From positions 1-64,000 of the IMG/VR virus record IMGVR_UViG_3300029305_002995: a stretch of 64,000 nucleotides of DNA. One strand, written 5' to 3'. The notes below the pieces were generated by a model. The model ran no database searches and was not told the origin of the DNA. It saw only the letters and a program-made list of their open reading frames with translations. Shown here piece after piece: positions 46,271 through 64,000 of the stretch. How positions within the stretch are numbered: the first letter of the stretch is position 1; each line of letters opens with the position of its first letter. The stretch comes from a virus. Lineage: Duplodnaviria > Caudoviricetes. The translations under genes and the position numbers were made by a program.

Positions 46271-47029
46271 TTACAACTGATTTTGTCTATACCTTTGTAC
46301 TCTAAGTCGAGTCATTTCACGCTTATGTTCTATAGCGCAAGCTTCACATCTATGCACTTTATTATCTTTCACATTGGTAGTAAACCATTCACCGCAATCA
46401 ACACACTGAACATCTTTGGTATGCAATTTTAGATTTCCACTTAAATTCTCGTAGATATAATCACCATAACATAACCATAAAATCATTTTATGTTTGCTGT
46501 CTTTAACAACATATAAAAGCTTGACTAATATATCTGCAACTTCTGAATTGGAATATCCAAACTTAGATAATTCAGTTTGAATTTCTTCTACAATTCGTTT
46601 GTATCTTAATTCTTGTTTTAATTGAGAATTTTTAAGAACATCCGCAGAATAACATTTATCCACCTGTGAAGCATTATTAAGAGCAAACTTATATTTATTA
46701 CTCAATTCATAATACTTAACAATTAATGGGTCTGTACTTTCTTTGATTAACTTACCTTTGTCTGTAAAATTCACAATACACTCTATATCTGGATTTCGCA
46801 TAAGCAAAGTGTAATCTATAGGGTTAACTTCAAGTTTTCTAAAATTAATTCTTGGATTAGGAATTATATTTTCAAGCTTATTTACAAAGCTATTATTAAC
46901 TGGAAATACTTGATGTTCTTCTTTGTCTTTAGCATATTTAAAGAAATGCGGTAAATTATTATTTGTGAACACACTAATTTGTGCATCAATATTTTTAGGT
47001 CGTGTTGGTTTATACAATGTCTTAGCATA
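46271..47029 (-). CDS. yonO: YonO-like RNA polymerase, exon 3
   Basis: Joining gives ENNFVID-YAKTLYKP; LPHFFKYAK motif; C-terminal Zn ribbon. Confidence 0.85.
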   Translation of the reverse strand, partial: YAKTLYKPTRPKNIDAQISVFTNNNLPHFFKYAKDKEEHQVFPVNNSFVNKLENIIPNPRINFRKLEVNPIDYTLLMRNPDIECIVNFTDKGKLIKESTDPLIVKYYELSNKYKFALNNASQVDKCYSADVLKNSQLKQELRYKRIVEEIQTELSKFGYSNSEVADILVKLLYVVKDSKHKMILWLCYGDYIYENLSGNLKLHTKDVQCVDCGEWFTTNVKDNKVHRCEACAIEHKREMTRLRVQRYRQNQL

Positions 47030-47419
47030 CTTAATTATACCCTCGGTTTCCCGATATTTATTAGGGGAATAGACTATATCATTACCCTATGTCAATTCAT
47101 AGGCTTATTATTAAGGGATTTCTCCGTAGTTAGCACTTCGATTTGAGGGGTTTTCACCCAGCAAGTATTTCATCTTGCCCCTACTCCTGTTGCTGAATTT
47201 CACAGCCTATGGGATAGTCGTTAGACCTTCAATTATATATCAAATATAATTGCTTGGCACTGGATTGTCATATAACAATATAAAGTTACTTAGATTTTCC
47301 CTGTTAGCATAGTTTTTCATCGTCATTTCCTACGATTACAATAGCAAACTACACACCCTACATTTATAGGTTCACTAACTTATTCGATATGTATTACTAC
47401 ATAAAGCGACTATATTTTA
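47030..47419 (-). mobile_element. ORF-less group I intron (390 nt), RNAP intron 2
   Basis: P AACAGGGAAA, R TCTAACGACTA, S ATGATATAGTCT; P1 CGAT/GTCG with U-G; terminal G at 47030; in-frame junction. Confidence 0.9.
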
Positions 47420-47722
47420 ATCGATAACAAAATTATTCTCCATACACAACAATTTAATAATATTAATAGCGTTTTGTTTTTCTTCTTCTGTTCCAGAAAT
47501 AAATACTTCACTATTCCATATTTTTGAAATATTGTTACTATATACACCTATATTACCACCTATAAAAGCAGCATTTAAACCATGATAAATAGATTCACTG
47601 TTTAACTGCACTGGCAATGCTTTTTTCATATTGTAGTACAAAGGCACAATATTCTGCATATTACGTTCCGCTACGTTAATTAGCGTCTTATCTGCTACTA
47701 CAAGGGACTTGTCTCCATCCAC
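47420..47722 (-). CDS. yonO: YonO-like RNA polymerase, exon 2
   Basis: Begins VDGDKSL; contains IGVYSNNISKIWN. Confidence 0.88.
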
Positions 47723-48744
47723 CACGATACTTTACATATCGCAGACTATATCTTAACCATATCTTTTCAGACTTAGGTTCTCAGCACTTCCACATAATGA
47801 ATGTCACATTATATGTACTCTACTTGGTTACTCATATAACACCATTTAAGGTTTTATATTATCCTTTCGATAGTCGTTTGATTTTCGTAAAATAAAAATT
47901 CAATCATTTTATATATTTTTTAATGCTATAATGTTTTTTATACAAAGAATTATTTCTAATTGCTCTATTCAATTGACACCGTACAGTTTCTACGTTATCT
48001 GTATCAGCTACACCAATATCAATTAAATATTGACAACATGGTACAATATAATCAAAACTTTTAACCAACTCTCCATCGTAAAATAAATCAACTGGTGTAC
48101 TACGACCATTTTGTGTTGCAGGTCTACCTTGTTTTATTTTAGACAGCAATTTATCATTTTGGTATTTCTTTGACAATTTATCATTTCCATAATTAGGATT
48201 TTTCTCGCCATGATAATCTGGTCTATTACAATTACTATATCTAACATTATCAGCATGAGTCATCCATTCTAAATTATCTGCTTTAGGATTTGCTCTATTG
48301 TAATCTTTGTGATTTACTTCTGGTAAATTATTTGGATTCGGTACAAAAGCAATGGCAACTAATATATGTACTGCTACGCTACGATAACCGATATTAGGCA
48401 ATCGCAAAGTACACACAATATATCCATCTGCATTATATCTATGTACACACTCTTTTCCATTACAAATAATCTTTCCAAAATTAGATACAGTTAAGTTTAA
48501 TCCTTTATAGCAAATATTTTTATATTGTTCTTGCAATTATAACACCACCTATTTTTTTTATAAAATGATGGATTATTTTTATTTTACGCTTAACACAGGA
48601 TTGCCATAATTAGTTTCCCTGTTAGCACATTACCAAATCGTCATTTCCTACGATTCCAAAAATGTGTAATGTACACCCTATATTTATAGGTTCACTGAGT
48701 TTTATATCTCTATGTTTCCATAGAGTTTGACATTTTTACTGGTC
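47723..48744 (-). mobile_element. Group I intron (1022 nt), RNAP intron 1, in the catalytic motif
   Basis: P1 TTTGAT/GTCAAA with U-G; P AACAGGGAAA, Q AATCCTGTGTT, R TCAAACGACTA, S AAGATATAGTCT; P3 CTCAGTG/TGCTGAG; terminal G at 47723. Confidence 0.93.
47904..48536 (-). CDS. Intron-encoded HNH homing endonuclease (I-HmuI-like)
   Basis: VHILVAIAFVPNPNNLPEVNHKDYNRANPKADNLEWMTHADN; enclosed by a 14-bp P6a stem CGTAAAATAAAAAT/ATTTTTATTTTACG. Confidence 0.9.
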   Translation of the reverse strand: MQEQYKNICYKGLNLTVSNFGKIICNGKECVHRYNADGYIVCTLRLPNIGYRSVAVHILVAIAFVPNPNNLPEVNHKDYNRANPKADNLEWMTHADNVRYSNCNRPDYHGEKNPNYGNDKLSKKYQNDKLLSKIKQGRPATQNGRSTPVDLFYDGELVKSFDYIVPCCQYLIDIGVADTDNVETVRCQLNRAIRNNSLYKKHYSIKKYIK

Positions 48745-50574
48745 ATCAAATTGGAGAACTTTGGAAATTAAATCCTTACAGCTTGTATATAAAGCGTCAG
48801 TACAAAACCATCTTCTAATACTTTGCTGTAATTCTTCATTTTTGTAATAAGCAAGATTTTTTCTAATAGGATGTTCCCTATATAAATGCGGACTTCGCAA
48901 ACAATCTAATTTTTCATTTCTTCTAAACAACCAACAAAACACTTCGCCATCATTCAATAATCCATCTGGATTTTCTATACCCTTAAACCAATACTCACAC
49001 GCCGCATAAAAGTCTGGTAGAATAAAAGTATATTTACCATTGATTTTCAACTTACCTGCTTTAAATCGTTTAATCATACTATCTTTTAATTCTCTAAGAT
49101 AGGATTTTACATATTCATCATTTAACAAATTAGGATATAGTTCAATGGATTTCTGAAATGGTGTTTTATCTAAATTATATGGGGTAACTCCAAATGCTGC
49201 TTTAATTGTATCTACAGAAGAAGTTAAATTTTTTAACGTACAAATAGAATCGTTAGCAATCTTTAAGATTTCTTCATCAGATATATCAGTCAAGCTCTGG
49301 AGCATCTGATAATTAATTGTTGCATTTTTAATTCTATCTTCTTCTGGATTAGTAAAACCTGCTGTACAACCATATCGTTTATATAATTCTTTATAGTTAT
49401 CCCAAGAATCGTAATATTTCCAGAGTTTAAATTGACTTTTCGTAAAGATAACTTCAATATCTTCTTCTATTACATTATGTTCTTGACCATAAATATCTTT
49501 AATTACTGGCGAACAATTATTTTCAATAATGAACTCTCTGAAATTAAACACTCCAAGTAAGCCTTTAACCCAAGGTAAACGAACCATACGATTTTTACCC
49601 ATCTTAGGCAACATCATACCTGCACCATCTGTATGTGTAATTACAACATTATTAGATACTCTGTTAATTGAATAATCCACATCATCTACTAAATCGAAAG
49701 TACCAAACACTTCGGTTTCAAAATCATCAATCACTATTGTTTTATCGATATTAAATTCTTCCCATACGTCAGTAGCGGAATTTGCCAAAGCAAGATAAGC
49801 TAAATGCTTATTTGGATTATTTCCACCTCTACGATTAATTTCATCTACAGTCAAACCACACATAATTGTTTTTTCATGCTGTTTCCAAATAGATTCTTTT
49901 ATAAAAACAACTTTCTTGGTTCTAATTTGTCCAGCAGATGAAGTAAAATAGATATATTTTTCGCCTTCAAATTCAAAGCCATGATATATCAAATCTTTAA
50001 TAATATCGAAATAATACACTTGAATTACCATGAAATCTTTACATAATTCATCTTGTTTTGCTTGAATAGTTCTGGTAAACGAAGATTCAAAAACAGAAAT
50101 AATATCATCATTTGAAATTTCATTTTCTCTAACTTTACGAATATGATGTTTTCCTTTGGATTTAATATTAGCTTCAACCTTGACAGATAACAGTTTTAGT
50201 AGAGCTTCTTCTACGTTGTGAATTGCATTAGTTTTTACTGACATTAAATCTCTGAGCTTTTTATATTTCTTTGCCCAGAACACAACATCTTCATTTCCAC
50301 CCCATAAAGCATAGTCAAATTTATCTTTAACAATATCGCTAAAGTCATTTTCATCTAAACCATATAGATTTAACTTTTTCTCAATTTCTTTATATCCAAC
50401 TATGATACGCTTAACTTCACCATTAGATTTTGTAATATAGCCACCTTTTTTAATTTGATTCTTTTCTTCTCGTAAAGTGTGAATCTTTTTATGTAGCCTT
50501 GCTTCTTTGTTGGTGTAAAAATAGCCTGTATCTATAGAATATATTTGTAATTGGCGGTCTAACAACGCTATCAC
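48745..50574 (-). CDS. yonO: YonO-like single-subunit DNA-dependent RNA polymerase, exon 1 (spliced ~960 aa)
   Basis: SSAGQIRTKK, HTDGAGM, RLPWVKGLL, TKSQFK, NYQMLQ, LRSPHLYREH and LQFD|VDGD double-psi-barrel motifs; start may be TTG at 50565. Confidence 0.88.
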
Positions 50575-53231: not shown

Positions 53232-53752
53232 TTAGAAGATTTTTCGATTGTTAAAGCTATATCAATATTGTTAAATGATTATCAATTAACCTCCCGCTAT
53301 TGGACTGAACCTTAGTTTATCAGCTAAACACAAAAAGGAGAAAAATCAAGCGTGTAAAGGTATCTTACTTTACACCGAAAAATCCAACGTAAAGTTTACT
53401 TTACATTTTCAAATATACTAATACAGTATACTTTCTCCCAAAAATCACTTTTTCTCCCTCTCAAAAAACCTCTCAAAAAACCTCCTAAAAAACCGCATAA
53501 CTAAGCGAAAAAACAATATTTTTCCATTTTCAAAAACGCTTAAAAAAAGCCTAAAAATATATGTTTTCTTCTTATATCCCTTATATCCCTTTTTTTCTTC
53601 CTATATCCTCTTCCCTTCTTCCTAATCACATTTCATTATAATTCTATCGTATTCCATTTACTTATATTTTTCCTTCTCCCTCCCTCCTATCCTCCCTTTT
53701 TGTACAAATTGCACAAAATTTCAAAAATCATAAAAAATTGCTCAAAACTCTA

Positions 53753-53781
53753 TTTACATACTGCAATCATTATGTTACAAT
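53753..53781 (+). promoter_or_regulatory. sigmaA promoter, cassette 1
   Basis: TTTACA-17-TACAAT with TG. Confidence 0.7.
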
Positions 53782-53868
53782 AAAATCGTACCAAACAGGT
53801 ACAAACAACAAACATTAAGCAAGTAAACAAAACAACAAACAACACAAATCAAAAAGGAGTACAAAACT

Positions 53869-54762
53869 ATGATGAACACTAACACTACTAACATCAATTC
53901 CATCCTCAACACCAACAAATCCAAAAAGCATGCTTGCGGTCATTGTCAGTGTTGCAACAAAGTCACTGACTTCCTCGCACTTCCAATGAAAGACCGTGGC
54001 GGCAGAAACGCATATCTTTGTGAAGAGTGCACTTCTAAAGTCTTTGACTATTGCGACGAAAACAGCTCTATCTACGGCGTTGAAAAAGTCCATCCATACA
54101 CTTTCAGCATTGAGCTTGAAGTATCAGCACACACCGACACGGCAAGCCTTGAACTTTCCCACATTGATTACTTGCCAACTTCTGACTGCACTGTTGAATG
54201 TGAATTCAAAAGCCCAATTTACAACGGTTTTAACGCTCTTTCCAAACACGCCACCCAAACTATCGCCATGTTATTAGATGACAATGAAATTGAAATGGAC
54301 TGGACTTGTGGAACTCATTTCAACGTTGGCGTAAACGGTAAAATCAATGAATACAGTATAGCATACATCGCAAGATACTATCGTGATTTGTTTATTCCAT
54401 TAAGCAACGCCATGAAAGAGCATCCAATTACTACTGAGCGCATCTATGGCAGAAACTTCTCGACATGGGCTGAACCTTGCAACGCATATACTTATCCTTA
54501 TGAACATTGCAACTTTATTAATATTCAGCATACTACCCACATCGAGCATAGACTCTGCAAGTATGTTACTGGCGAACAATACGCTGAATGTATGAGATAC
54601 TGTCGCAAGCTTACCGAGATTATCATCAACAACTTTGTTGACTACCTTACCGTAGAAATCAAAGATACTAACAGATACCCAGACCGTGAAAGTTATCTGA
54701 AACATAAAGCAGAAGTAACTGCAAAAAAACTTGTAAACGAGTTTTTAAAAAGAGCGAGATAG
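53869..54762 (+). CDS. Putative amidoligase (COOH-NH2 ligase type 2) with N-terminal Zn finger
   Basis: FSIELE, SDCTV.CEFKSP, TCGTHFNVG and IEHR motifs. Confidence 0.75.
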   Translation: MMNTNTTNINSILNTNKSKKHACGHCQCCNKVTDFLALPMKDRGGRNAYLCEECTSKVFDYCDENSSIYGVEKVHPYTFSIELEVSAHTDTASLELSHIDYLPTSDCTVECEFKSPIYNGFNALSKHATQTIAMLLDDNEIEMDWTCGTHFNVGVNGKINEYSIAYIARYYRDLFIPLSNAMKEHPITTERIYGRNFSTWAEPCNAYTYPYEHCNFINIQHTTHIEHRLCKYVTGEQYAECMRYCRKLTEIIINNFVDYLTVEIKDTNRYPDRESYLKHKAEVTAKKLVNEFLKRAR

Positions 54763-54911
54763 TAAGGTTATAAGTTAAAAGGGCGAGAGTAAAATCTCGC
54801 CCGATACCTAAAACAAACATTTTCAAAAATAATCAAAAATTACACAAATTTTCAAAAACATCTTAAAATTTTATCAACTTTCAAAAATCACAAAAAAAAG
54901 GAGATAATACC

Positions 54912-55241
54912 ATGAAAAAAATGACTTTGACTGCATCTGATATGAAAAAAATCCTTCTTAAAAAATTAGCAGATGAAAACACATATTTCACTGAATCTGA
55001 TATTCTCTTTTATCAAACTTCGCCGCAACGATATAAAATTATCATTAAAGACTATGAACATATTGTTTTTATCCTTAATATATTTAATGATGAAGAAGAT
55101 GACGCAGAACTCATTGCAGTATGGCGAAAAGATAAAGACCGCACAAATAAAAATTTGATTATCTTAGAAGAACATCACGAAAACAAAGTTATAGAATCTG
55201 TGTTGAAACAACTTGGATATTATATCGGTACACGCTTTTAA
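54912..55241 (+). CDS. Hypothetical early protein
   Basis: AAGGAG RBS; terminator follows. Confidence 0.7.
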   Translation: MKKMTLTASDMKKILLKKLADENTYFTESDILFYQTSPQRYKIIIKDYEHIVFILNIFNDEEDDAELIAVWRKDKDRTNKNLIILEEHHENKVIESVLKQLGYYIGTRF

Positions 55242-55250
55242 TAGTTTTAT

Positions 55251-55279
55251 AGAGAGTCTGGAAACAGACTCTTTTTTTT
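55251..55279 (+). terminator. Intrinsic terminator (GAGTC stem)
   Basis: agagagtctg-gaaa-cagactctt + T-run. Confidence 0.85.
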
Positions 55280-55619
55280 ATGCTTTTTTCTTTACACAAA
55301 AAAGCTGCATTTTCAAAAACGTTAAGTTTTTGTATTTTTAATGTTTTCAAAAATAGTTGTTTTTGATACTATTTTCAAAAACGCTCAAATATTGTATTGT
55401 TAAAAAATTATCACTTTATCCGAAAATCATAATATAATTACTTAAAAAATCCAAACTGTTACAAAACGACCCTACAATACGATACAATCAATTTTAATCC
55501 TTTTAACCTATAACAATATACACTATACCGCAAAAATGCCTTACAGAAGCTCTCAGACGCTACAAATCAATTTTAATATAATAAGAAAATAAACAGTTAA
55601 ACAAAACAGAAAAATTCTA

Positions 55620-55650
55620 AACTTGCAACTAACTTACAACTAACTTGCAT
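55620..55650. repeat. 11-bp tandem repeat AACTTRCAACT
   Basis: About 2.7 copies. Confidence 0.6.
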
Positions 55651-55719
55651 TTTCAAAAACTAAATTTTATTGCAGAAAATTTTAGAAAATAAATAATCAA
55701 AGAAAATTCAAAAAAACAC

Positions 55720-55748
55720 TTGACAAAACAAATTCAATAAGCTATAAT
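55720..55748 (+). promoter_or_regulatory. sigmaA promoter
   Basis: TTGACA-17-TATAAT. Confidence 0.85.
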
Positions 55749-55804
55749 CTAATCAAACAAGAACATAAACAAAACGACAAACAACAAAACAGGAGGAAAC
55801 AAAA

Positions 55805-56086
55805 ATGAAGAAAAACATAATAAAATATACTTGCATTAACTGCAAATATTTTAATGCGTGCGGAGACGAAGAACGCACAGAACCATGCAAAGGAAAAATC
55901 CCCGCAATAATAAAGTACAAACACCACGCAGAACCAGAAACAATAAAAGAATTAAACCTCGAAGCAGTTTACAGAAACAACTCTTTCGCCTATCGTGGAA
56001 TGAGTTATGAAGAATTTGTAAAACTGGAACTTACCAAAATTCAGAAAGATTTAGAAAATGGCGTTTTGCTTTGGTATGAAGCATAA
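55805..56086 (+). CDS. Hypothetical early protein with Cys cluster
   Basis: AGGAGG RBS; CINC..F..CGD.ERT.PC. Confidence 0.75.
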   Translation: MKKNIIKYTCINCKYFNACGDEERTEPCKGKIPAIIKYKHHAEPETIKELNLEAVYRNNSFAYRGMSYEEFVKLELTKIQKDLENGVLLWYEA

Positions 56087-56108
56087 ACAACTAACAGGAG
56101 GAAAAACC

Positions 56109-56222
56109 ATGAAGCAGAAAATCAGAAATTTCGTAAACTATATTCTTGTAGAATCCGCTTTTGTAGCTGTCAGCTTGTCAATGATTTTTGTTCTTTTGGA
56201 AAGAACTTGTGCAAGATATTAA
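56109..56222 (+). CDS. 37-aa single-TM peptide (not in ORF track)
   Basis: AGGAGG RBS; MKQKIRNFVNYILVESAFVAVSLSMIFVLLERTCARY. Confidence 0.65.
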   Translation: MKQKIRNFVNYILVESAFVAVSLSMIFVLLERTCARY

Positions 56223-56253
56223 AAGAAAGTAAAGTTATAATTTATATATAATT

Positions 56254-56281
56254 AAGGGAGTCGAAAGACTCCCTTTCTTTT
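56254..56281 (+). terminator. Intrinsic terminator (GAGTC stem)
   Basis: aagggagtc-gaaa-gactccctt + T-rich tail. Confidence 0.85.
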
Positions 56282-56578
56282 ATACCCTACACAGAAAAAT
56301 TGTATTTTCAAAAACACTTGATTTTTGATACTATTTTCAAAAACGTTAAGTTTTTGTATTTGTATATTTTTAGATATGGAATTTTTCTGCTTAAACCTTA
56401 AATTTCAAATTTACAACAAAATTGAATTTTTGAAAACTGGAACAACTTGTATCTGGAATTATCTGAACATCTGGAACAATTTTTGACGATATTCAAAAAT
56501 ATTAAATTTTTGATGACGTTTTCAAAAACACTAATCTATTGCAGAAAATAATTATTTTAATAAAATTTAATTCACCTA

Positions 56579-56607
56579 TTGACATAATGCAATCATTACA
56601 CTATAAT
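56579..56607 (+). promoter_or_regulatory. sigmaA promoter
   Basis: TTGACA-17-TATAAT. Confidence 0.85.
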
Positions 56608-56652
56608 ATAATTAAAGACAAAACAAACAACGACCCACAGGAGGAAAAACAA

Positions 56653-56904
56653 ATGGAGAAAATAAACCTTGCTCATGTAGTAGAAAAATTCTTAATGGAG
56701 AAAAAATGCCACTTTGATGATATTTATCAAGGCTTTGCAGATTGCCTTGTATGTATTAAAATTACTGGTGACTGGAAGCATGACCATTTAAGAACTAAAA
56801 TCTTACTCGAAGAAAACTTTAATGTACTTTTACATAAAGAAGATGCAGAACCATCTGAAGAAGATTTTTATACCGCAGTGCATACTTTTATGATTAAAGA
56901 TTGA
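56653..56904 (+). CDS. Hypothetical early protein (83 aa)
   Basis: Start moved to MEKIN after AGGAGG; ITGDWKHDHL motif. Confidence 0.75.
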   Translation: MEKINLAHVVEKFLMEKKCHFDDIYQGFADCLVCIKITGDWKHDHLRTKILLEENFNVLLHKEDAEPSEEDFYTAVHTFMIKD

Positions 56905-56915
56905 GAGGAAGAATA

Positions 56916-57134
56916 ATGATGTTTCCATATAAAAATTACAAAGTGGAATTTTCCTATTATTCCGAAACCAAAAAGAAAAGAATAACGGAGTCAGAATATT
57001 ACGGATGCGAATACAGCGCGCAAAATGCTGTCAATCGTTGTAGAGTTGACTATCAAAATTATAAAGATTTAAGGATTGAATCAGTTTATTTTGAAAATTA
57101 TACTGCATGGGAATTTACAGATGCTTGGGAATAA
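56916..57134 (+). CDS. Hypothetical early protein
   Basis: GAGGAAG RBS; second gene of the cassette. Confidence 0.65.
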   Translation: MMFPYKNYKVEFSYYSETKKKRITESEYYGCEYSAQNAVNRCRVDYQNYKDLRIESVYFENYTAWEFTDAWE

Positions 57135-57143
57135 ATAAAAATC

Positions 57144-57170
57144 AGAGAGTCAGAAATGACTCTCTTTTTT
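57144..57170 (+). terminator. Intrinsic terminator (GAGTC stem)
   Basis: agagagtca-gaaa-tgactctct + T-run. Confidence 0.85.
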
Positions 57171-57474
57171 ATTGCGATTTTACTTTTACAACTAACCAGC
57201 GTTTTCAAAAATTCAAAGAAATTGTAATAATCAAGATAAAACAAATTAAGTCAATTTTTGAAAACACAATACTTTTGTGCGGCTTGTTTCTGTATATATT
57301 TGTTTTTGAACATGGAATTTTTTTATTTTATTACAATTTAACTTAATTTTCAAAAATACTACTTTCCTGTCAACAGCTGTATGATAATAATATGACAACA
57401 AAAAATCAACATTTCTAAAAACATTTTTCTTTTGTCTAAGAAAATAAATATAAAAATAAATTTTCAATAACTAC

Positions 57475-57503
57475 TTGACATAATAATATTATTATGTTAT
57501 AAT
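57475..57503 (+). promoter_or_regulatory. sigmaA promoter
   Basis: TTGACA-17-TATAAT with TG. Confidence 0.9.
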
Positions 57504-57557
57504 CAAATCAGAAAATAAACAACACAACAAACAATATAAAACAAAGGAGTTAAAACT

Positions 57558-58415
57558 ATGACAAAAGAAAAATTCAATATCTATGAAGAAATTACAAACA
57601 GAATTATTAAACAGCTTGAAGCAGGAACTATTCCATGGCACAAACCATGGTCTGGAGTAGCTACTGGAGCATTTAACAGAGTTTCCAAAAAACCTTATAG
57701 CCTGTTGAATCAAATGCTTTTACAGCACGAGGGAGAATATGCTACTTTCAAACAGTGGAGCGCACTTGGCGGCAAAATCAAAAAAGGCGAAAAATCCGAA
57801 ATTGTTGTTTTCTGGAAAATCCTTGAATCTGAAAAAGTAAATGATAAAGGCGAAAAGGAGAAACAGATTATTCCTATGCTTAGATATTATAGCGTTTTTC
57901 ATATCTCACAAATTGAAGGCGTAGAACCTATCTCAAAACCACAGGTACAGCACGAACCAATTAAAGAAGGCGAAGAAATTAAAAACAATTATAAAGCAAG
58001 AGAAAATTTGACTATTAACGAAATCGTGACAAATAGAGCCTTTTACAACCCATCTGGTGACTATATCGAAGTACCATGCAAAGAGCAGTATTCAGATATT
58101 GCAGAATTTTACAGCACATTATTCCATGAGATGACTCACAGCACAGGACACAAAGACAGGTTAAACAGATTAGATAAAACCGCACGCTTTGGGAATAATG
58201 AATATAGTAAAGAGGAACTTGTAGCTGAAATCGGAGCTTGTAGCTTAATCAATATGATTGGCTTGGAATCTCCAAAAACTTTTAATAATAGTGCTTCATA
58301 TATCCAGAGTTGGCTCAAAGTATTGAAAGATGATAGTAAATTCATTGTATCTGCAAGTAGTAAAGCAGAAAAAGCGGTTAAATATATCTTAGGTGAACAG
58401 CTTGTAACAGAATAA
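57558..58415 (+). CDS. ardC: ArdC-like antirestriction protein (ssDNA-binding domain plus zincin-like domain)
   Basis: IPWHKPW, YATFKQW..LGG.IKKGEK, VFHISQ, FHEMTHSTGH and YSKEELVAE motifs. Confidence 0.9.
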   Translation: MTKEKFNIYEEITNRIIKQLEAGTIPWHKPWSGVATGAFNRVSKKPYSLLNQMLLQHEGEYATFKQWSALGGKIKKGEKSEIVVFWKILESEKVNDKGEKEKQIIPMLRYYSVFHISQIEGVEPISKPQVQHEPIKEGEEIKNNYKARENLTINEIVTNRAFYNPSGDYIEVPCKEQYSDIAEFYSTLFHEMTHSTGHKDRLNRLDKTARFGNNEYSKEELVAEIGACSLINMIGLESPKTFNNSASYIQSWLKVLKDDSKFIVSASSKAEKAVKYILGEQLVTE

Positions 58416-58426
58416 AAAAATATACT

Positions 58427-58453
58427 GAGGACTCGAAAGAGTCCTCTTTTTTT
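58427..58453 (+). terminator. Intrinsic terminator (GACTC/GAGTC stem)
   Basis: gaggactc-gaaa-gagtcctc + T-run. Confidence 0.85.
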
Positions 58454-58600
58454 GCTATTACACAAAATCAGTATTTTTAGAAACGATGATTTTTTGCATT
58501 TTTTCTTATCACAAGAAAAGTCAATTTTTGAAAATCCTATCAAATTGCAATATACCATTTTTTGAGAAAATAATTATTTTAATAACTCTTATATTTTGTA

Positions 58601-58629
58601 TTGACTCTTGAAAAACATAGTGCTATAAT
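58601..58629 (+). promoter_or_regulatory. sigmaA promoter
   Basis: TTGACT-17-TATAAT with TG. Confidence 0.85.
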
Positions 58630-58668
58630 ATAGTTAAGGATAAAAAATAAATTATAGGAGGTTTATTT

Positions 58669-58995
58669 ATGAATAACGAGCAGAAAATTATGAGTATACT
58701 TGATTTAATTATGGAACGCCTTGATAAAATAGAAAGTAGATTTGATAATCTGGAAAATAGATTTGATAGATTTGAAATTGACGTAAACAAGCGTTTTAAT
58801 GACCTTGAGTCTAACATGGACAAACAATTTGCAGAGGTTAAACGATGTTTAGCAGATGTCGCAGAAGGAATCAACGCTACTATTTTACATTCAGCACAAG
58901 ATACACAAGTATTAAATAAACGAATTGACGAAATAGAAAAAATTGCAATTATCGCATTAAAAGAAGCAAGCCTCGCAAAATATAGGAATATCTAA
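58669..58995 (+). CDS. Coiled-coil protein with RFD/RLD heptads
   Basis: AGGAGGT RBS; RLDKIES-RFDNLEN-RFDRFE. Confidence 0.75.
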   Translation: MNNEQKIMSILDLIMERLDKIESRFDNLENRFDRFEIDVNKRFNDLESNMDKQFAEVKRCLADVAEGINATILHSAQDTQVLNKRIDEIEKIAIIALKEASLAKYRNI

Positions 58996-59005
58996 AATAC
59001 ACATT

Positions 59006-59035
59006 AAAAAGAGTCTGGAAACAGGCTCTTTTTTT
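59006..59035 (+). terminator. Intrinsic terminator (GAGTC stem)
   Basis: aagagtctg-gaaa-caggctctt + T-run. Confidence 0.85.
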
Positions 59036-59156
59036 ATACGCTTTTTATCTTTACAAGTTATTAAGATTTTTGAAAATGGAATTTTTTCGCTTTCAAAAAT
59101 AGAATGTATTCAAAAACATCTGGAAAATAAATATTAAAATAAATTGGATTTTACTA

Positions 59157-59185
59157 TTGACATACTACAATAGTTATGTTATTAT
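59157..59185 (+). promoter_or_regulatory. sigmaA promoter
   Basis: TTGACA-17-TATTAT with TG. Confidence 0.8.
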
Positions 59186-59241
59186 ATACTCAAACAAGGA
59201 CATAAACAAAACGACAAACAACAAAATAGGAGGAAAACAAA

Positions 59242-59631
59242 ATGAAAATCAATGTAATGACTCTTACCAATGGCGAACTTAAAAAAATTGAAATCGAAAA
59301 CAATTTATCCAGTTTACAGAATCTCGTAGGCGGTTATATTGAAATCCCTTGCTTGTCTGAAAGATTGACCGCTCAAAAAATTATCACCATTATCAATGAA
59401 GAAGGAAAATTTTTAGATTTGACTCCCGAAATTGCTTGTGTTTATGATGGTAAACTCCATGATATAGTTTTTGGTACGGTTATCTTTGCAAGTACAGACT
59501 ATGAAGGAAATACACTGGGACTTAATACAGAACAGATGGAATATATCAAAAATGAACTTAGAAATGATGCTATTGTTCATTTAAGAAACAGAAATAAAAC
59601 GTATATGCTGAAAGTATTACAGTTTGAATAA
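59242..59631 (+). CDS. DUF3846-like protein
   Basis: LQNLVGGYIE, INEEGK and DIVFG motifs. Confidence 0.75.
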   Translation: MKINVMTLTNGELKKIEIENNLSSLQNLVGGYIEIPCLSERLTAQKIITIINEEGKFLDLTPEIACVYDGKLHDIVFGTVIFASTDYEGNTLGLNTEQMEYIKNELRNDAIVHLRNRNKTYMLKVLQFE

Positions 59632-59638
59632 AAAAATT

Positions 59639-59664
59639 AGGGAGTCTTTCGACTCCCTTTTTTT
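59639..59664 (+). terminator. Intrinsic terminator (GAGTC stem)
   Basis: agggagtc-tttc-gactccct + T-run. Confidence 0.85.
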
Positions 59665-59786
59665 ATTTACAATTTTACAGATTATTTGTATTTTTGAAAA
59701 CAGAAACTTTTTGCTTTTATTTTAATTAATATCAAAATAATAGTATTTTTGAAAATAGACATAATTTGTAAATTTCCCTCACCTGC

Positions 59787-59815
59787 TTGACAACGTGACT
59801 TTTAGTTGATATAAT
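59787..59815 (+). promoter_or_regulatory. sigmaA promoter of the candidate sRNA
   Basis: TTGACA-17-TATAAT with TG. Confidence 0.85.
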
Positions 59816-59819
59816 TAAA

Positions 59820-59950
59820 ATACAAAGACAGCATTTAATTCCTTTTGATTTGTGCTAATGTTGTTTGTTGTTGTTATTTTCTTCAAATTAAAAGCTATTT
59901 CTTTTCCTGTTGTCTTTGTATTTGGCGGTGCTTACGGCATCGCCTTTTTT
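59820..59950 (+). ncRNA. Candidate ~130-nt trans-acting antisense sRNA against early-gene leaders
   Basis: Own promoter and terminator, no RBS; 5' and 3' ends pair (TACAAAGACAGCA/TGTTGTCTTTGTA); loop is the reverse complement of the cassette leaders and SD. Confidence 0.75.
59924..59950 (+). terminator. Intrinsic terminator of the sRNA
   Basis: ggcggtgc-ttacg-gcatcgcc + T6. Confidence 0.85.
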
Positions 59951-60287
59951 ATTACAATGTTTTACAAGCCGTCTAAAAGCCTTTATAAAGCGTTTTAATA
60001 CACGTATAGTAACTTAATCAATAAATAATACAAAATAGATTTTAGACATATTACAGAAGCGGAAAAATGATTTTAGACTATATGATATATTCAAATATGA
60101 TAATTAGAATAAAATCCAACTTCAATCAGATTAAAACAAGATAGCAGCGTTTTTGAAAAAGCAAAGAATTTGTATTTTAACAAAAACAAAAAACTTGAAT
60201 TTTTGAAAACACTATTTTATTGCAAATAAGATTAGATAATTAGATGATAAGCAAAGAAATGAATTTTAATTTATTTGATAAAACTAC

Positions 60288-60316
60288 TTGACATATTGCA
60301 TTTAATATGCTATAAT
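60288..60316 (+). promoter_or_regulatory. sigmaA promoter
   Basis: TTGACA-17-TATAAT with TG. Confidence 0.9.
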
Positions 60317-60379
60317 GTAGATGGTAGATAAGCTACTAACAACAAACAAAACATAAAAGCACAAAAGGAGAAATGAATT

Positions 60380-60583
60380 ATGAAAATCAATGTAGGTTAC
60401 AAAAAGAATGAATGGTTAGCTGTATATGTTACTGCTGATGGCGAAAGAGAATTTGCAATTTGCAATACATATGAAGAAGCGGAAAAAGAAATTAACCGTT
60501 TAAGAAATTGTGGTATTTGTATTATTGGAACTATGACAACAAGATTTTATAATCATTATGTAGAGGAAATTATTGATAAATAA
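60380..60583 (+). CDS. Hypothetical early protein
   Basis: Promoter, AAGGAG RBS and terminator. Confidence 0.75.
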   Translation: MKINVGYKKNEWLAVYVTADGEREFAICNTYEEAEKEINRLRNCGICIIGTMTTRFYNHYVEEIIDK

Positions 60584-60594
60584 CAAATCAAATC

Positions 60595-60620
60595 AAGGGA
60601 GTCGAAAGACTCCCTTTCTT
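60595..60620 (+). terminator. Intrinsic terminator (GAGTC stem)
   Basis: Identical to the 56254 hairpin. Confidence 0.85.
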
Positions 60621-60807
60621 ATTTGCGCTACTGGACAATTTATTAGTATTTTTGAAAACGTCACTTCCCTGCTCTAATTTCAGAATAGCAATAAAATTCC
60701 GTTTTTAACAATACAATTTTTTTGCTTGGAACAAAATAATATAATATTTGAAAACACTTTTCTTTTGTCTAAGATAGTAAATATAAAAATAATTTTTATA
60801 AAACTAC

Positions 60808-60836
60808 TTGACATACTTTAATTATTATGCTATACT
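60808..60836 (+). promoter_or_regulatory. sigmaA promoter
   Basis: TTGACA-17-TATACT with TG. Confidence 0.85.
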
Positions 60837-60895
60837 CTAATCATAGAAAATAAACACACAAACAAACCACAAATCAATTAAAAGGAGAAGAAATT

Positions 60896-61564
60896 ATGAT
60901 TAGTAGTGAAAAGATTCTTGAAATGCTGAATAATGGCAACTATGAAGAACTAAAAGAACTTTGTAAACGTGATATGGTGTCTAAAAGCTTAAAAGCAAAT
61001 GGCGGCACAAATGCAAACAAACAGCTTAAAGCGTTTGAAAAATTTTTGAAACTATCACAGAAACAGCCCAAAGAATTAGAACGTATCGTTCATTTTGATA
61101 TGGTAAAAGGCGACGAAGCAAAAGCATTGTGCAAAGAAGGTCTTTCCGCTTTGTTTATTATTCCTTCTTGTCCATTTTATAAAAATATCGAGAGTGTTCC
61201 AATGACTGGACAGGCAAAGCTCGGTAGTATTGCAGATTCAATGAATACAAAATTTGATTTTACTATTGAAAATGCAGTTATTGATTTTGCTATGAAATAC
61301 GCAAAAACAAATACTGCGGACAAACGTTTTAGAAACTTATATCTTCCAAACGGTGCTTTGTTCGACATTGAACTTATCAAAGAAGTTGTAAACGTTCTCG
61401 GAGATTGTGAAGTGTATGGAGTTGATAACGGAAACAGAACTTTAATTAGTCCAATCCTTTTACAATCTAATAATGGATATGCTCTTGTTTGTCCTCGAAA
61501 AAATACAGAGCAGGACAAAGAAAAATGTAAAACCTATGATGATTATAAAAACATGATGGAATAA
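60896..61564 (+). CDS. Hypothetical early protein (222 aa)
   Basis: Promoter, AAGGAG RBS and terminator; ends ISPILL....GYALVCP. Confidence 0.75.
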   Translation: MISSEKILEMLNNGNYEELKELCKRDMVSKSLKANGGTNANKQLKAFEKFLKLSQKQPKELERIVHFDMVKGDEAKALCKEGLSALFIIPSCPFYKNIESVPMTGQAKLGSIADSMNTKFDFTIENAVIDFAMKYAKTNTADKRFRNLYLPNGALFDIELIKEVVNVLGDCEVYGVDNGNRTLISPILLQSNNGYALVCPRKNTEQDKEKCKTYDDYKNMME

Positions 61565-61569
61565 AAAGT

Positions 61570-61597
61570 GGGAGTCTGGTAACAGACTCCCTTATTT
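61570..61597 (+). terminator. Intrinsic terminator (GAGTC stem)
   Basis: gggagtctg-gtaa-cagactccc + T-rich tail. Confidence 0.8.
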
Positions 61598-61670
61598 AAC
61601 ATTAAACAAAATATTAGTGTTTTCAAAAACATTAAGAAAATAATAATTTCGATAAAACAGTAAAAAATAT

Positions 61671-61699
61671 TTGACAAACTGGAAAAATTATGTTATAAT
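61671..61699 (+). promoter_or_regulatory. sigmaA promoter
   Basis: TTGACA-17-TATAAT with TG. Confidence 0.9.
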
Positions 61700-61772
61700 A
61701 CAAATGCAATAAGGAAGTAAACACAACAACAAACTATACTTATTGCAAAATACGAAAGGAGGTACTTGCTTT

Positions 61773-61946
61773 ATGGTTAAAATCGTGCAAAAACAAGATG
61801 GTTATTATATCCTCGAAGCACAAATTGATGGCTTAACTATCGTTAAAGGCTTGATGGATGCAGACAAACCATTAGAAAAAATTGCAAAAGAACCTAAAGC
61901 AGATGGATTTTATTTACATATTCCAGACGAAATAATTTGTAAATAA
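61773..61946 (+). CDS. Small hypothetical early protein (57 aa)
   Basis: AAGGAGGT RBS before MVKIV. Confidence 0.65.
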   Translation: MVKIVQKQDGYYILEAQIDGLTIVKGLMDADKPLEKIAKEPKADGFYLHIPDEIICK

Positions 61947-62110
61947 ATGAAGTCGGAGGGAATTTATTCTGACTGCCAATACATAATAAATTCCCTCTTG
62001 TACCTTATTCAATCAATGATGTGTAATACAATATGTAAATGCAATTCACGGAATAAATTATAAATAGAACCTTATTTTTTAGAAGAAAATAAAATAGAAG
62101 AAGAAAAGCG

Positions 62111-62143
62111 AAAAGGATTGATTTTCAAATATCAGTCCTTTTT
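62111..62143 (+). terminator. Intrinsic terminator
   Basis: aaaaggattgat...atcagtcctttt. Confidence 0.7.
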
Positions 62144-62213
62144 GTTTTGTACAAAAATATCATGTTTTTGAAAATACATATAATATTATTTAGTAAATAT
62201 ATACACAAACTAC

Positions 62214-62242
62214 TTGACAACATGATTTCAGTATGTTATAAT
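62214..62242 (+). promoter_or_regulatory. sigmaA promoter
   Basis: TTGACA-17-TATAAT with TG. Confidence 0.9.
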
Positions 62243-62292
62243 ACAGTCAAGAAAATAAACACAAATGCAAACAACATGAAAGGATTGATATT

Positions 62293-62775
62293 ATGTTATA
62301 CTGTGCTTATGGTAGTAATATGAACTTGGAACAAATGGCTTATAGATGCCCTAACTCAAAAATTGTAGGGACTGGACAAATTAAAAATTATCAGTTAGTA
62401 TTTAATATGTGTGCAGATATTATTAAAAGCGACAATGCGGAAAATTTTGTTCCAGTTGTTCTCTGGGAAATCGCAGAAGAAGATTGGGAAAGATTGGATA
62501 TTTACGAAGGTTATCCACATTTCTATACAAAAGAAGTTGTTACAGTATCTTGCGGAAAAAACAATGTAGAAGCTATCGTATATGTTATGATAGACGATAA
62601 CAAAGGTATTGAGCCGCCTATGTATGATTACTTTATGGGTATTTTAGCAGGATATACGGAAAATAATATCAACACAAAACCGCTGTATGATGCTTTGAAA
62701 CATTCACAAGAACATAAAACAGTACATTCTAAATATGTATATGGAAGATTATCTAAGAAACTTAATAGACGATAA
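62293..62775 (+). CDS. Gamma-glutamylcyclotransferase (AIG2-like)
   Basis: YCAYGSNMN..QM..RCP, LDIYEGYP.FY and A.VYVM motifs. Confidence 0.9.
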   Translation: MLYCAYGSNMNLEQMAYRCPNSKIVGTGQIKNYQLVFNMCADIIKSDNAENFVPVVLWEIAEEDWERLDIYEGYPHFYTKEVVTVSCGKNNVEAIVYVMIDDNKGIEPPMYDYFMGILAGYTENNINTKPLYDALKHSQEHKTVHSKYVYGRLSKKLNRR

Positions 62776-62789
62776 ATATATATATTTTA

Positions 62790-63062
62790 ATGGAGGAAAA
62801 TAATATGAAAAAATGGTGTCTTATTGACGAAGCAAGAAATATTATGGATTTATTTGTATACGACAACAAAGATTTAGCTATTGCCGATGCAGAGAATTTA
62901 TGGAGTCGTTTGACAAATTCTGATAAAATGCAAAGAACAATGTTTCTTGTAGGTTTATGTAATGTAGAACAAAACGAAGATGGTAAATGGGATTTTGCAG
63001 AAAATAAATATGGGCTTATTGATTGTGATATTTATGAAGTAGCAAAAAATTTTATAGAATAA
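62790..63062 (+). CDS. Hypothetical early protein
   Basis: GGAGG RBS points to a start at MKKWC (62805). Confidence 0.65.
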   Translation: MEENNMKKWCLIDEARNIMDLFVYDNKDLAIADAENLWSRLTNSDKMQRTMFLVGLCNVEQNEDGKWDFAENKYGLIDCDIYEVAKNFIE

Positions 63063-63091
63063 ATATATTTTGTAATACAAAGGATGATGCG

Positions 63092-63484
63092 ATGAAAAAG
63101 AAAACAATGCAGACATATAAAAATTATGTTTGCCCTAAATGCTTTAATATTCTGACTCAATGTAATTGTGATAAGTTGTCTGATAAACTCATTTATATCG
63201 ATGTAGGTATTCAAGAGCATATTAAAATCCTAAATGCCAAAGGTTATAAAACGCTATTTTGTTGCGAGTCTCATTATGAAAGAAATGATTTGCAATTATA
63301 TATTTCCTTTGCCTATCAGCATTATCATTTAGGCGAACTACCGCATGGTTTTAAACGTTCTGCAGATGGAAGGAATATAGAATATATCTTTAATTCAAAG
63401 CTATCCAGAGACGCTTACAGCCAATGTAAAAACGATGTATTAAAAGAACTATTAGAATGGTGCAAAGCCTTGCCGAATTTATAA
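63092..63484 (+). CDS. Hypothetical protein with ID..I...I..LN.KGY.T..CC.SH motif
   Basis: Motif reminiscent of the TYW3 N-terminus; Cys cluster. Confidence 0.6.
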   Translation: MKKKTMQTYKNYVCPKCFNILTQCNCDKLSDKLIYIDVGIQEHIKILNAKGYKTLFCCESHYERNDLQLYISFAYQHYHLGELPHGFKRSADGRNIEYIFNSKLSRDAYSQCKNDVLKELLEWCKALPNL

Positions 63485-63504
63485 TAAAAACATTAAAGAG
63501 GATT

Positions 63505-63533
63505 AAAAGGGAGTCTTTCGACTCTCTTTTTTT
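63505..63533 (+). terminator. Intrinsic terminator (GAGTC stem)
   Basis: agggagtc-tttc-gactctct + T-run. Confidence 0.85.
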
Positions 63534-63704
63534 ATTTACAATAAAATAGCATTTTTGAAAACAAATATTTATTGTTATTCCCTACTCTGACAAAATATAA
63601 TTATTTTTGAAAATATAATTAAGCTGCCATAACAGAAAAATCTTATATTTGAAAATGCTAAGAAAATAAATATTAAAATAATCAATTTTTTCTTTCAAAA
63701 ATCC

Positions 63705-63733
63705 TTGACATAATGAATGTATTGTGTTATACT
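63705..63733 (+). promoter_or_regulatory. sigmaA promoter
   Basis: TTGACA-17-TATACT with TG. Confidence 0.85.
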
Positions 63734-63792
63734 ATAATCAAACAAAGGAAATAAATAAAACAACAAACAATGTATCAAAAGGAGAATGAATT

Positions 63793-64000
63793 ATGATTAC
63801 ACTGAATCAGCTTAATTGTTCCAGATGTTATCGTTTTGTAGATAACAATTTGAAATCTTATAAAGTGGAATGTATTCGCTTTTATAAAGAAAATAAGGTT
63901 GTAATTCAAGTTGATAATGGTTGGTTGACTGTTAGAAAACAGGGATGGACAGTTGATTTGAAATCTCTTGACCTTCCTATTTCTGAAATCAAAGCTAAAA
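63793..64000 (+). CDS. Hypothetical early protein, truncated by the window end
   Basis: AAGGAG RBS; MITLNQLNCSRC... open to 64000. Confidence 0.7.
   Translation, partial: MITLNQLNCSRCYRFVDNNLKSYKVECIRFYKENKVVIQVDNGWLTVRKQGWTVDLKSLDLPISEIKAK

What the first reader, a model, noticed from the sequence alone, without database searches (positions are those of the whole stretch)
59787..59950. Candidate master antisense sRNA complementary to the shared leader and RBS of the whole early-gene array
Seen: this is the only cassette with a perfect TTGACA-17-TATAAT promoter and a strong terminator but no RBS or credible ORF. Its ends pair into a 13-16-bp stem, leaving a G/U-rich loop whose reverse complement reads AGAAAATAACAACAACAAACAACATTAGCACAAATCAAAAGGAATTAAA. 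This is a consensus of the leaders of 10 of the other 11 promoter cassettes. Amidoligase leader: AACAACAAACAA + CACAAATCAAAA + GGAG. ardC: AGAAAATAA, CAACAAACAA, AAAGGAGTTAAA. 55805 and 59242: ACGACAAACAACA. 56653: AACAAACAAC. 60380: AACAACAAACAA, AGCACAAA. 60896: AGAAAATAA, CACAAATCAA. 61773: ACAACAACAAAC. GGCT: AAGAAAATAA, CAAACAACAT. 63793: AACAACAAACAA, ATCAAAAGGA. A second segment (TTTTCCTGTT, ~59902-59911) could pair with the AACAGGAGGA-type RBSs. Established: enterobacterial GcvB uses a G/U-rich strand to silence many mRNAs through C/A-rich translational enhancers. Inference: one phage sRNA shuts off, times or dampens a dozen unrelated host-takeover genes through a standardised leader, so any newly captured gene joins the regulon by acquiring the leader. 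I know of no described phage system like this.
Basis: partly seen in the sequence, partly recalled or inferred. Interest (0 to 1): 0.92.

Follow-up and report, generated by a model that had tools for sequence, protein, structure and literature searches.

The report
Phage small RNA against own leaders
A large gut phage carries a ~130-base non-coding RNA gene, conserved in at least seven related phages, whose exposed G/U-rich core is the mirror image of the ribosome-loading leaders of eleven of the phage's own early genes, so one RNA probably turns that whole gene set down; no transcript or repression has yet been measured.

Summary
Observation confirmed and extended. Window 59787-59950 is an ORF-less cassette (12/12 sigmaA promoter with extended -10, 13-14-bp closing stem, Rho-independent terminator) in an SPbeta-like (YonO) animal-gut phage. 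Its core is the best anti-leader stretch in the 111-kb genome. It ranks eleven C/A-rich cassette leaders at places 1-11 of 118 5' UTRs: ten in the window plus one new target at genome 69766. New here: seven homologues (57-67% identical to the query) lie in related cassette arrays, one strong copy per record. All keep the order anti-Shine-Dalgarno tract, GU tract, closing stem, terminator. Stem arms change in compensatory fashion, and a model built without the query finds it. The anti-SD part tracks each phage's own leaders (modest support). No Rfam family matches. Best reading: a trans-acting, GcvB-like translational repressor aimed at the phage's own early array. Expression, repression and timing (lytic pulse versus lysogen silencing) are inferred, not shown. 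Corrections: the query's loop is partly self-masked, and the second segment is query-specific. This scan has noted similar anti-leader RNAs on other phage DNA (unchecked AI notes), so the design appears recurrent. I found no paper describing it.

The parts
59787..59815 (+). sigmaA-type promoter, 12/12 consensus with TG extension
   Evidence: same class of promoter before all seven homologues
59821..59950 (+). predicted ~130-nt sRNA (start inferred from promoter spacing)
   Evidence: held-out covariance model hit 59818-59953, 41 bits
59820..59833 (+). 5' arm of the closing stem
59834..59852 (+). anti-Shine-Dalgarno / anti-spacer tract; partly masked by the internal mimic in this phage
59853..59882 (+). 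GU tract complementary to the ACA-rich leader enhancer; apical part is the accessible seed
59884..59894 (+). internal target mimic pairing with 59842-59852
59900..59911 (+). query-specific pyrimidine segment; used in cofolds with the 55805, 56653 and 62293 leaders; absent from homologues
59908..59921 (+). 3' arm of the closing stem
59924..59950 (+). intrinsic terminator (9-bp stem and U-tract)
53788..53868 (+). predicted target leader, amidoligase-2-like gene
   Evidence: duplex -33.1, net -14.9; family by homologues
55755..55804 (+). predicted target leader, 93-aa gene
   Evidence: -28.5 / -8.2
56614..56652 (+). predicted target leader, 83-aa gene
   Evidence: -24.7 / -8.8
57510..57557 (+). 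predicted target leader, ardC-like gene
   Evidence: -33.4 / -11.2
59192..59241 (+). predicted target leader, DUF3846 gene
   Evidence: -27.4 / -10.4
60323..60379 (+). predicted target leader, 67-aa gene
   Evidence: -31.2 / -9.3
60843..60895 (+). predicted target leader, 222-aa gene
   Evidence: -29.8 / -8.3
61706..61772 (+). predicted target leader, 57-aa gene
   Evidence: -34.2 / -6.5
62249..62292 (+). predicted target leader, GGCT-like operon
   Evidence: -26.8 / -6.2
63740..63792 (+). predicted target leader, 204-aa gene operon
   Evidence: -31.6 / -10.6
58636..58668 (+). leader of the one array cassette that is not a predicted target
   Evidence: -16.2 / -0.6

Best explanation
The cassette makes a stable ~130-nt trans-acting sRNA from a host sigmaA promoter. 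A closing stem holds its ends together and presents a GU tract and an anti-SD tract. The GU tract first pairs with the unstructured ACA-rich enhancer in the leaders of the phage's early cassette mRNAs. Pairing then extends over the Shine-Dalgarno region, displacing the internal mimic in this phage, and blocks 30S loading (possibly followed by mRNA decay). One RNA thus dampens about eleven promoter-driven cassettes. Shown: sequence, fold, conservation, complementarity and its selectivity. Inferred: transcription, pairing in vivo, repression. On timing, because its promoter is of the same class as those of its targets, the default is a delayed cap or shut-off of early translation as the RNA accumulates. 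Silencing of leaky array mRNA in a lysogen, or of a superinfecting relative, is the main alternative use of the same mechanism.
For: Eight-member family, 57-90% pairwise identity, all ORF-less behind strong promoters with terminators. Each 5' arm pairs best with its own 3' arm (or the same-stem arm shared by L144/L151): mean -16.9 vs -7.7 kcal/mol across members. 16 of 22 pairs show two-sided change, 90.5% of cells pair against 39-54% for slid controls (alignment fitted to the structure). A model without the query finds it as top hit of the genome. Targets take ranks 1-11 of 118 UTRs; in complete genome G012, promoter-cassette leaders again dominate (p 2e-10); in a Ruminococcus control only 1.9% of UTRs reach -24.7. 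Net binding after self-structure is -6 to -15 for eleven targets and -0.6 to -2.6 for seven of eight other leaders, one internal gene -6.8. Segment order matters: the native core beats a version with its halves swapped in 8 of 8 members (query -27.8 vs -19.8). The anti-SD part fits its own phage's leaders best (permutation p 0.0006-0.004 for 8 phages). Query leaders share 5.1 8-mers with the query RNA against 0.7-1.6 with the homologues. Targets carry 4.8 ACA per 50 nt against 0.7 elsewhere; ACA is a translation enhancer silenced by GcvB (PMC3879156).
Against: No expression or repression data. Much of the complementarity is compositional: for 55805, 60380, 60896 and 61773 the best of 12 dinucleotide-shuffled leaders bound as well or better. 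Covariation without the query is weaker (anti-SD p 0.014-0.065; whole core p 0.41), the phages are related, and the leader sets are partial. Homologues were found through the neighbouring DUF3846 gene, which biases sampling. Related arrays G002 and G006 (complete records) have no counterpart.
Confidence: 0.7

Rival explanations
1. The RNA is made, but its main targets are host mRNAs with A/C-rich leaders, or it pairs with leaders broadly as a general translation dampener. The match to the phage's own leaders is then a by-product of shared composition.
For: Low-complexity GU repeats pair with any ACA-rich leader; 1-5% of control Ruminococcus UTRs reach target-level energies; shuffled leaders sometimes bind as well.
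Against: The anti-SD part tracks the phage's own leader variants; query-specific words of the RNA occur in query leaders and not in those of relatives; the RNA sits inside the array it matches. The true host is unknown, so host targets were not tested.
Confidence: 0.1
2. The RNA is a protein-binding decoy: it presents a U/G-rich single strand that titrates an RNA-binding protein or nuclease, and the closing stem only stabilises it.
For: A repetitive UUG tract of variable length in a large loop is typical of protein sponges (own knowledge); two homologues tolerate a hairpin inserted in the tract.
Against: It does not explain the conserved anti-SD tract, its fixed position 5' of the GU tract (which mirrors the enhancer-then-SD order of the leaders), or the fit to own leaders.
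Confidence: 0.09
3. The RNA pairs with the leaders but does not repress: it stabilises the mRNAs against 5' nucleases or helps loading.
For: The leaders are unstructured and exposed, and some sRNAs protect 5' ends (own knowledge).
Against: Predicted duplexes run to within 3-9 nt of the start codon or over it, covering the SD, which normally blocks initiation.
Confidence: 0.06
4. It is an inverted, non-functional leader relic, or a DNA-level element such as a recombination site.
For: Leaders are repeats that recombine: five assemblies carry a deletion joined inside two leaders.
Against: It is conserved across phages whose RNAs are only about 60% identical to the query, with compensatory stem changes, G-U pairs, and an intact promoter and terminator; one strong copy per record.
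Confidence: 0.05

Closest known systems
GcvB sRNA of enterobacteria (Rfam RF00022, accession recalled; PMC3879156)
   Same: A G/U-rich strand pairs with ACA-rich translation enhancers just upstream of the SD in many mRNAs; multi-target and trans-acting.
   Different: No sequence or model match. Phage-encoded in a probable Firmicutes phage and aimed at the phage's own standardised cassette leaders, not host transport genes. It has an end-to-end closing stem and a dedicated anti-SD tract. Hfq dependence is unknown.
C4 antisense RNA of phages P1/P7 (PMC5320573)
   Same: Phage-encoded RNA whose loops pair in trans with the phage's own mRNA; part of immunity and lysogeny control.
   Different: C4 is a three-hairpin 77-nt RNA cut by RNase P that acts on one operon (single-operon target: own knowledge). 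This is a primary transcript with one large loop and about eleven predicted target transcripts. No Rfam match.
FopS paralogous sRNAs of Bacteroides thetaiotaomicron (PMC11697453)
   Same: Repress translation by pairing at the 5' ends of a panel of related transcription units.
   Different: Host-encoded, 14 paralogues, antagonised by RbpB. Here a single copy in a phage, with no match in Rfam.
SPbeta early region under MrpR/SPBRE (PMC10516654, PMC8270828)
   Same: YonO-type RNA polymerase phage; many sigmaA cassettes with repeated intergenic motifs; a tyrosine-recombinase-fold gene nearby.
   Different: SPbeta control as described there is a protein repressor on DNA; its known antisense RNAs (SR4, SR6) are cis-encoded antitoxins. 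The RNA model did not hit the SPbeta-like locus searched (L075, 21 kb only).

Membership tests
GcvB | Match to the Rfam covariance model | tested here: not met
   No Rfam hit at E<=1 in 52-64 kb; homologue loci give only sub-threshold chance hits to other families
GcvB | G/U-rich single strand complementary to ACA-rich enhancers next to the SD of several mRNAs | tested here: met
GcvB | Hfq dependence; GcvA-controlled gene beside gcvA in Proteobacteria | tested here: not met
   Context is a phage cassette array with a YonO polymerase; Hfq dependence itself not testable
C4 antisense RNA | Three-hairpin fold with a'/b' loops, RNase P processing, Rfam match | tested here: not met
   Different fold; no Rfam match
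Trans-encoded base-pairing sRNA (general class) | Own promoter and intrinsic terminator, no ORF | tested here: met
Trans-encoded base-pairing sRNA (general class) | Conserved structure with covariation | tested here: met
Trans-encoded base-pairing sRNA (general class) | Seed accessible and complementary to translation-initiation regions elsewhere in the genome | tested here: met
Trans-encoded base-pairing sRNA (general class) | Seed and targets covary | tested here: inconclusive
   Anti-SD p 0.0006-0.004 with the query, 0.014-0.065 without; whole core p 0.05 / 0.41; no phylogenetic correction
Trans-encoded base-pairing sRNA (general class) | Expressed and represses its targets | not testable with these tools
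   Needs RNA data and reporters
Cis-encoded antisense RNA (type I antitoxin-like) | Overlaps its target on the opposite strand | tested here: not met
   Same strand as the targets, single locus, no overlapping gene or opposing strong promoter

The most novel reading that the evidence does not exclude
A clade of SPbeta-like gut phages runs a modular RNA-controlled regulon. Every cassette in the recombination-prone early array carries a standard ACA-rich leader that serves both as translation enhancer and as crossover site, and one sRNA reads that leader as an address. Because the sRNA promoter in 7 of 7 homologues has at most one copy of the repeat motif found upstream of most protein cassettes, it may stay on in the lysogen and give RNA-based silencing of, or immunity against, a whole class of early genes, whatever genes are swapped in.
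Probability: 0.3. Interest if true: 0.9.

Novelty: new variant of a known kind. Interest (0 to 1): 0.74.

Why it matters
Known phage sRNAs act on host genes or on one phage operon (review PMC12197685, first two parts read). A single RNA that governs a dozen unrelated, interchangeable early genes through a standard leader would be a new layer of phage developmental control: it would shut down early translation without a protein inhibitor of sigmaA transcription such as SPO1 Gp33 (PMC13401047), and it would explain why such arrays keep look-alike leaders. It is directly testable with leader reporters in Bacillus subtilis, and it offers a compact multi-gene knock-down part for Firmicutes.

Tried and rejected
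No RNA holder listed for the region; this says nothing on expression. Exact-pattern scans for the RNA found nothing in viral contigs and only unrelated short matches in metagenome contigs. A blastn of annotated phages matched mainly the terminator. ArdC, amidoligase and YonO as baits gave more distant phages. Their arrays (G001 37% complete, G002, G003 contig 7, G006) have other leader motifs and no comparable anti-leader window or strong model hit. G008, G010 and G011 have few perfect promoters in the stretches read and no strong hit. The model found nothing in 151 Ruminococcus-family genomes (no positive control, not evidence of absence). Near-identical strains are 100% identical over the RNA, so uninformative. 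In run X8 the contig over 59807-60369 had 6 differences in 563 letters against 44 in 616 over ardC, but the positions were not listed. RNAalifold on the raw MAFFT alignment missed the closing stem because the arms were out of register. The G002 window at 80146 and the G001 window at 20344 are not promoter-terminator cassettes. tRNA-operon spacers were tested as further anti-leader RNAs: weak and not selective for the array. A full sliding duplex scan timed out. Literature searches found no paper on this design; the library is incomplete.

Full report
Setting. The window is the first 64 kb of a 111,157-bp IMG/VR virus record, 81% complete, from animal faecal or gut metagenomes. It encodes a YonO-like single-subunit RNA polymerase, so it is SPbeta-like. 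From 53.7 kb an array of twelve near-consensus sigmaA promoters drives small unrelated genes: an amidoligase-2-like protein (no direct Pfam hit; 16 of 19 aligned homologues match PF12224), ArdC, DUF3846 and a GGCT-like protein.

The observation. At 59787 a 12/12 promoter with TG extension is followed by no RBS and, about 110 nt later, by an intrinsic terminator. The ~130-nt product folds far better than shuffles (z -6.7), with a 13-14-bp stem joining its ends. Nothing in Rfam matches, and the locus is single-copy. The reverse complement of 59833-59882 is a consensus of the array leaders, as reported.

Selectivity. With the core paired against all 118 callable 5' UTRs of the genome, the eleven C/A-rich promoter leaders take ranks 1-11. 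They include a new target outside the window, the 456-aa gene at genome 69766. The 58669 cassette is not a target. In the reverse test, sliding over both strands of the genome for the best complement of the leaders, this element is the clear top window. With self-structure of both RNAs included, net binding is -6 to -15 kcal/mol for targets and -0.6 to -2.6 for seven of eight other leaders, one internal gene giving -6.8; predicted duplexes reach to within 3-9 nt of the start codon or cover it. Part of this is composition: for four targets a shuffled leader did as well. In 157 Ruminococcus control UTRs only 1.9% reach -24.7 kcal/mol. Target leaders are mostly unstructured and carry 4.8 ACA triplets per 50 nt against 0.7 elsewhere. 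ACA is a demonstrated translation enhancer and the site at which GcvB acts (PMC3879156).

A family. Homologues of the neighbouring DUF3846 gene led to arrays in other phages. Seven carry an ORF-less G/U-rich cassette: L143, L144, L146, L148, L151, L152, L153. They are 57-67% identical to the query and 59-90% to each other, and all fold with z -4.4 to -8.6. All share the layout: strong promoter, 5' arm, pyrimidine anti-SD tract, GU tract, 3' arm, terminator. Arm sequences differ, but each 5' arm pairs best with its own 3' arm, or the same-stem arm shared by L144/L151 (mean -16.9 vs -7.7). On the model-fitted alignment, 16 of 22 pairs show two-sided changes (this count leans toward the structure and includes one weak extra row). 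A model built from the seven homologues alone finds the query as best hit in its genome (41 bits, E about 1e-4). Each record has one strong hit. Three carriers tested have YonO proteins 65-67% identical to the query's. The complete carrier G012 has a large serine recombinase, so it is probably temperate. In G012 its own RNA again ranks promoter-cassette leaders at the top (p 2e-10).

Do RNA and leaders change together? The query's leaders share 5.1 8-mers each with the query RNA but 0.7-1.6 with the other RNAs. The anti-SD segment fits its own phage's leaders better than others (permutation p 0.0006 by energy, 0.004 by exact match). Without the query and the near-duplicate L151, p is 0.014 and 0.065; the whole core gives 0.05 with all eight and 0.41 without the query. 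These tests ignore relatedness, so the support is modest. A cleaner sign is order: swapping the two halves of the core weakens pairing in all eight, as expected if the RNA lies antiparallel over enhancer and then SD.

Mechanism. Shown: gene-like anatomy, conserved fold, accessible seed, selective complementarity. In the query the apical GU tract opens for 1.3 kcal/mol, while the anti-SD side is masked by an internal mimic (6.1 kcal/mol); in homologues the anti-SD opens for under 2. Inferred: the GU tract nucleates on the enhancer, pairing extends over the SD, and 30S loading is blocked. Timing cannot be read from sequence. The RNA's promoter is of the same class as its targets', which predicts a delayed cap on early translation as a stable RNA accumulates. 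However, in all seven homologues the promoter sits 8-21 bp behind an upstream gene with 0-1 copies of the phage's intergenic repeat in the 300 bp upstream, whereas most protein cassettes have several; the query has two. If those repeats are repressor sites, as SPBRE is for MrpR in SPbeta (PMC10516654), the RNA could remain on in lysogens. That is a hypothesis only.

Limits of distribution. More distant phages with similar arrays but different leader motifs show no counterpart in complete records G002 and G006, nor do G008, G010 and G011. The element is therefore a property of one clade with ACA-rich leaders. Sampling via DUF3846 is biased.

Modularity. Five assemblies of near-identical strains carry a ~5.4-kb deletion joining the amidoligase leader to the DUF3846 leader within two 10-nt identical blocks separated by one mismatch. 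The RNA cassette is kept. This shows that leaders are crossover points and that a recombined leader keeps the target motif. It does not show capture of new genes.

Comparison and verdict. It works like GcvB but is not a member; it resembles C4 only in being a phage RNA aimed at phage mRNA. I found no published description. Earlier AI notes of this scan report like designs in other phages. One, e1-5780853, reads very similarly, but sequence look-ups linked none to this family; I treat them as leads, not support. Verdict: a real, previously uncatalogued phage sRNA family; probably a multi-target translational repressor of the phage's own early array (0.7); new variant of a known kind; interest 0.74.

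Noticed in passing
window 53836-59212 (junction seen in L030, L031, L032, L033, L035): A ~5.4-kb deletion removing the amidoligase-like to 58669 genes; the crossover lies in leader microhomology (10 + 10 nt, one mismatch). L037, L038 and L041 carry the undeleted form.
   Followed up: partly
window 46271-50574 (- strand): The YonO-like polymerase gene is in three pieces relative to the 972-aa G012 protein. The first break falls inside the catalytic DxDGD motif and holds an HNH endonuclease ORF (47904-48536); probably two self-splicing introns, although Rfam gave no intron hit.
   Followed up: partly
genome G000:C1:73658-76351 (outside window): tRNA operon whose spacers hold anti-SD-like pyrimidine tracts; 75398-75570 folds with a 14-bp closing stem around a U/G-rich loop, like the sRNA. 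Pairing with array leaders is weak and unselective; other phage genes rank higher.
   Followed up: partly
G000:C1:74108-74195 and 74548-74623: tRNA genes called with unusual anticodons (Ser ACT, Asp ATC) by ARAGORN; possibly degenerate.
   Followed up: no
window 53500-64000 intergenic spacers; L143-L153 spacers: Each phage has its own near-palindromic intergenic repeat in tens of copies between cassettes, differing between phages; candidate repressor or nucleoid-protein sites.
   Followed up: partly
L025:9156 and L025:10891 (also L019, L027-L029): Other ORF-less cassettes with perfect promoters and U-tracts in ardC arrays of a different gut phage group; purine-rich, unrelated in sequence and not complementary to their leaders.
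   Followed up: partly
G001 and G002 arrays (L108, L107): Very strict 15-17-nt motifs at the transcript start of 12-15 cassettes with no antisense copy found; may be protein-binding sites.
   Followed up: partly
L143:10776-10908 and L148:10939-11086: The same small tetraloop hairpin is inserted into the GU tract of two homologues.
   Followed up: no
G000:C1:67506-69414 (L035:8537-10445): Arc-like repressor, a conserved unknown and a 260-aa tyrosine-recombinase-fold gene just downstream of the array; reminiscent of the SPbeta yopP-yopR control region.
   Followed up: no
L141:3515-4657: A reverse transcriptase gene (PF00078) in an unrelated gut phage contig.
   Followed up: no
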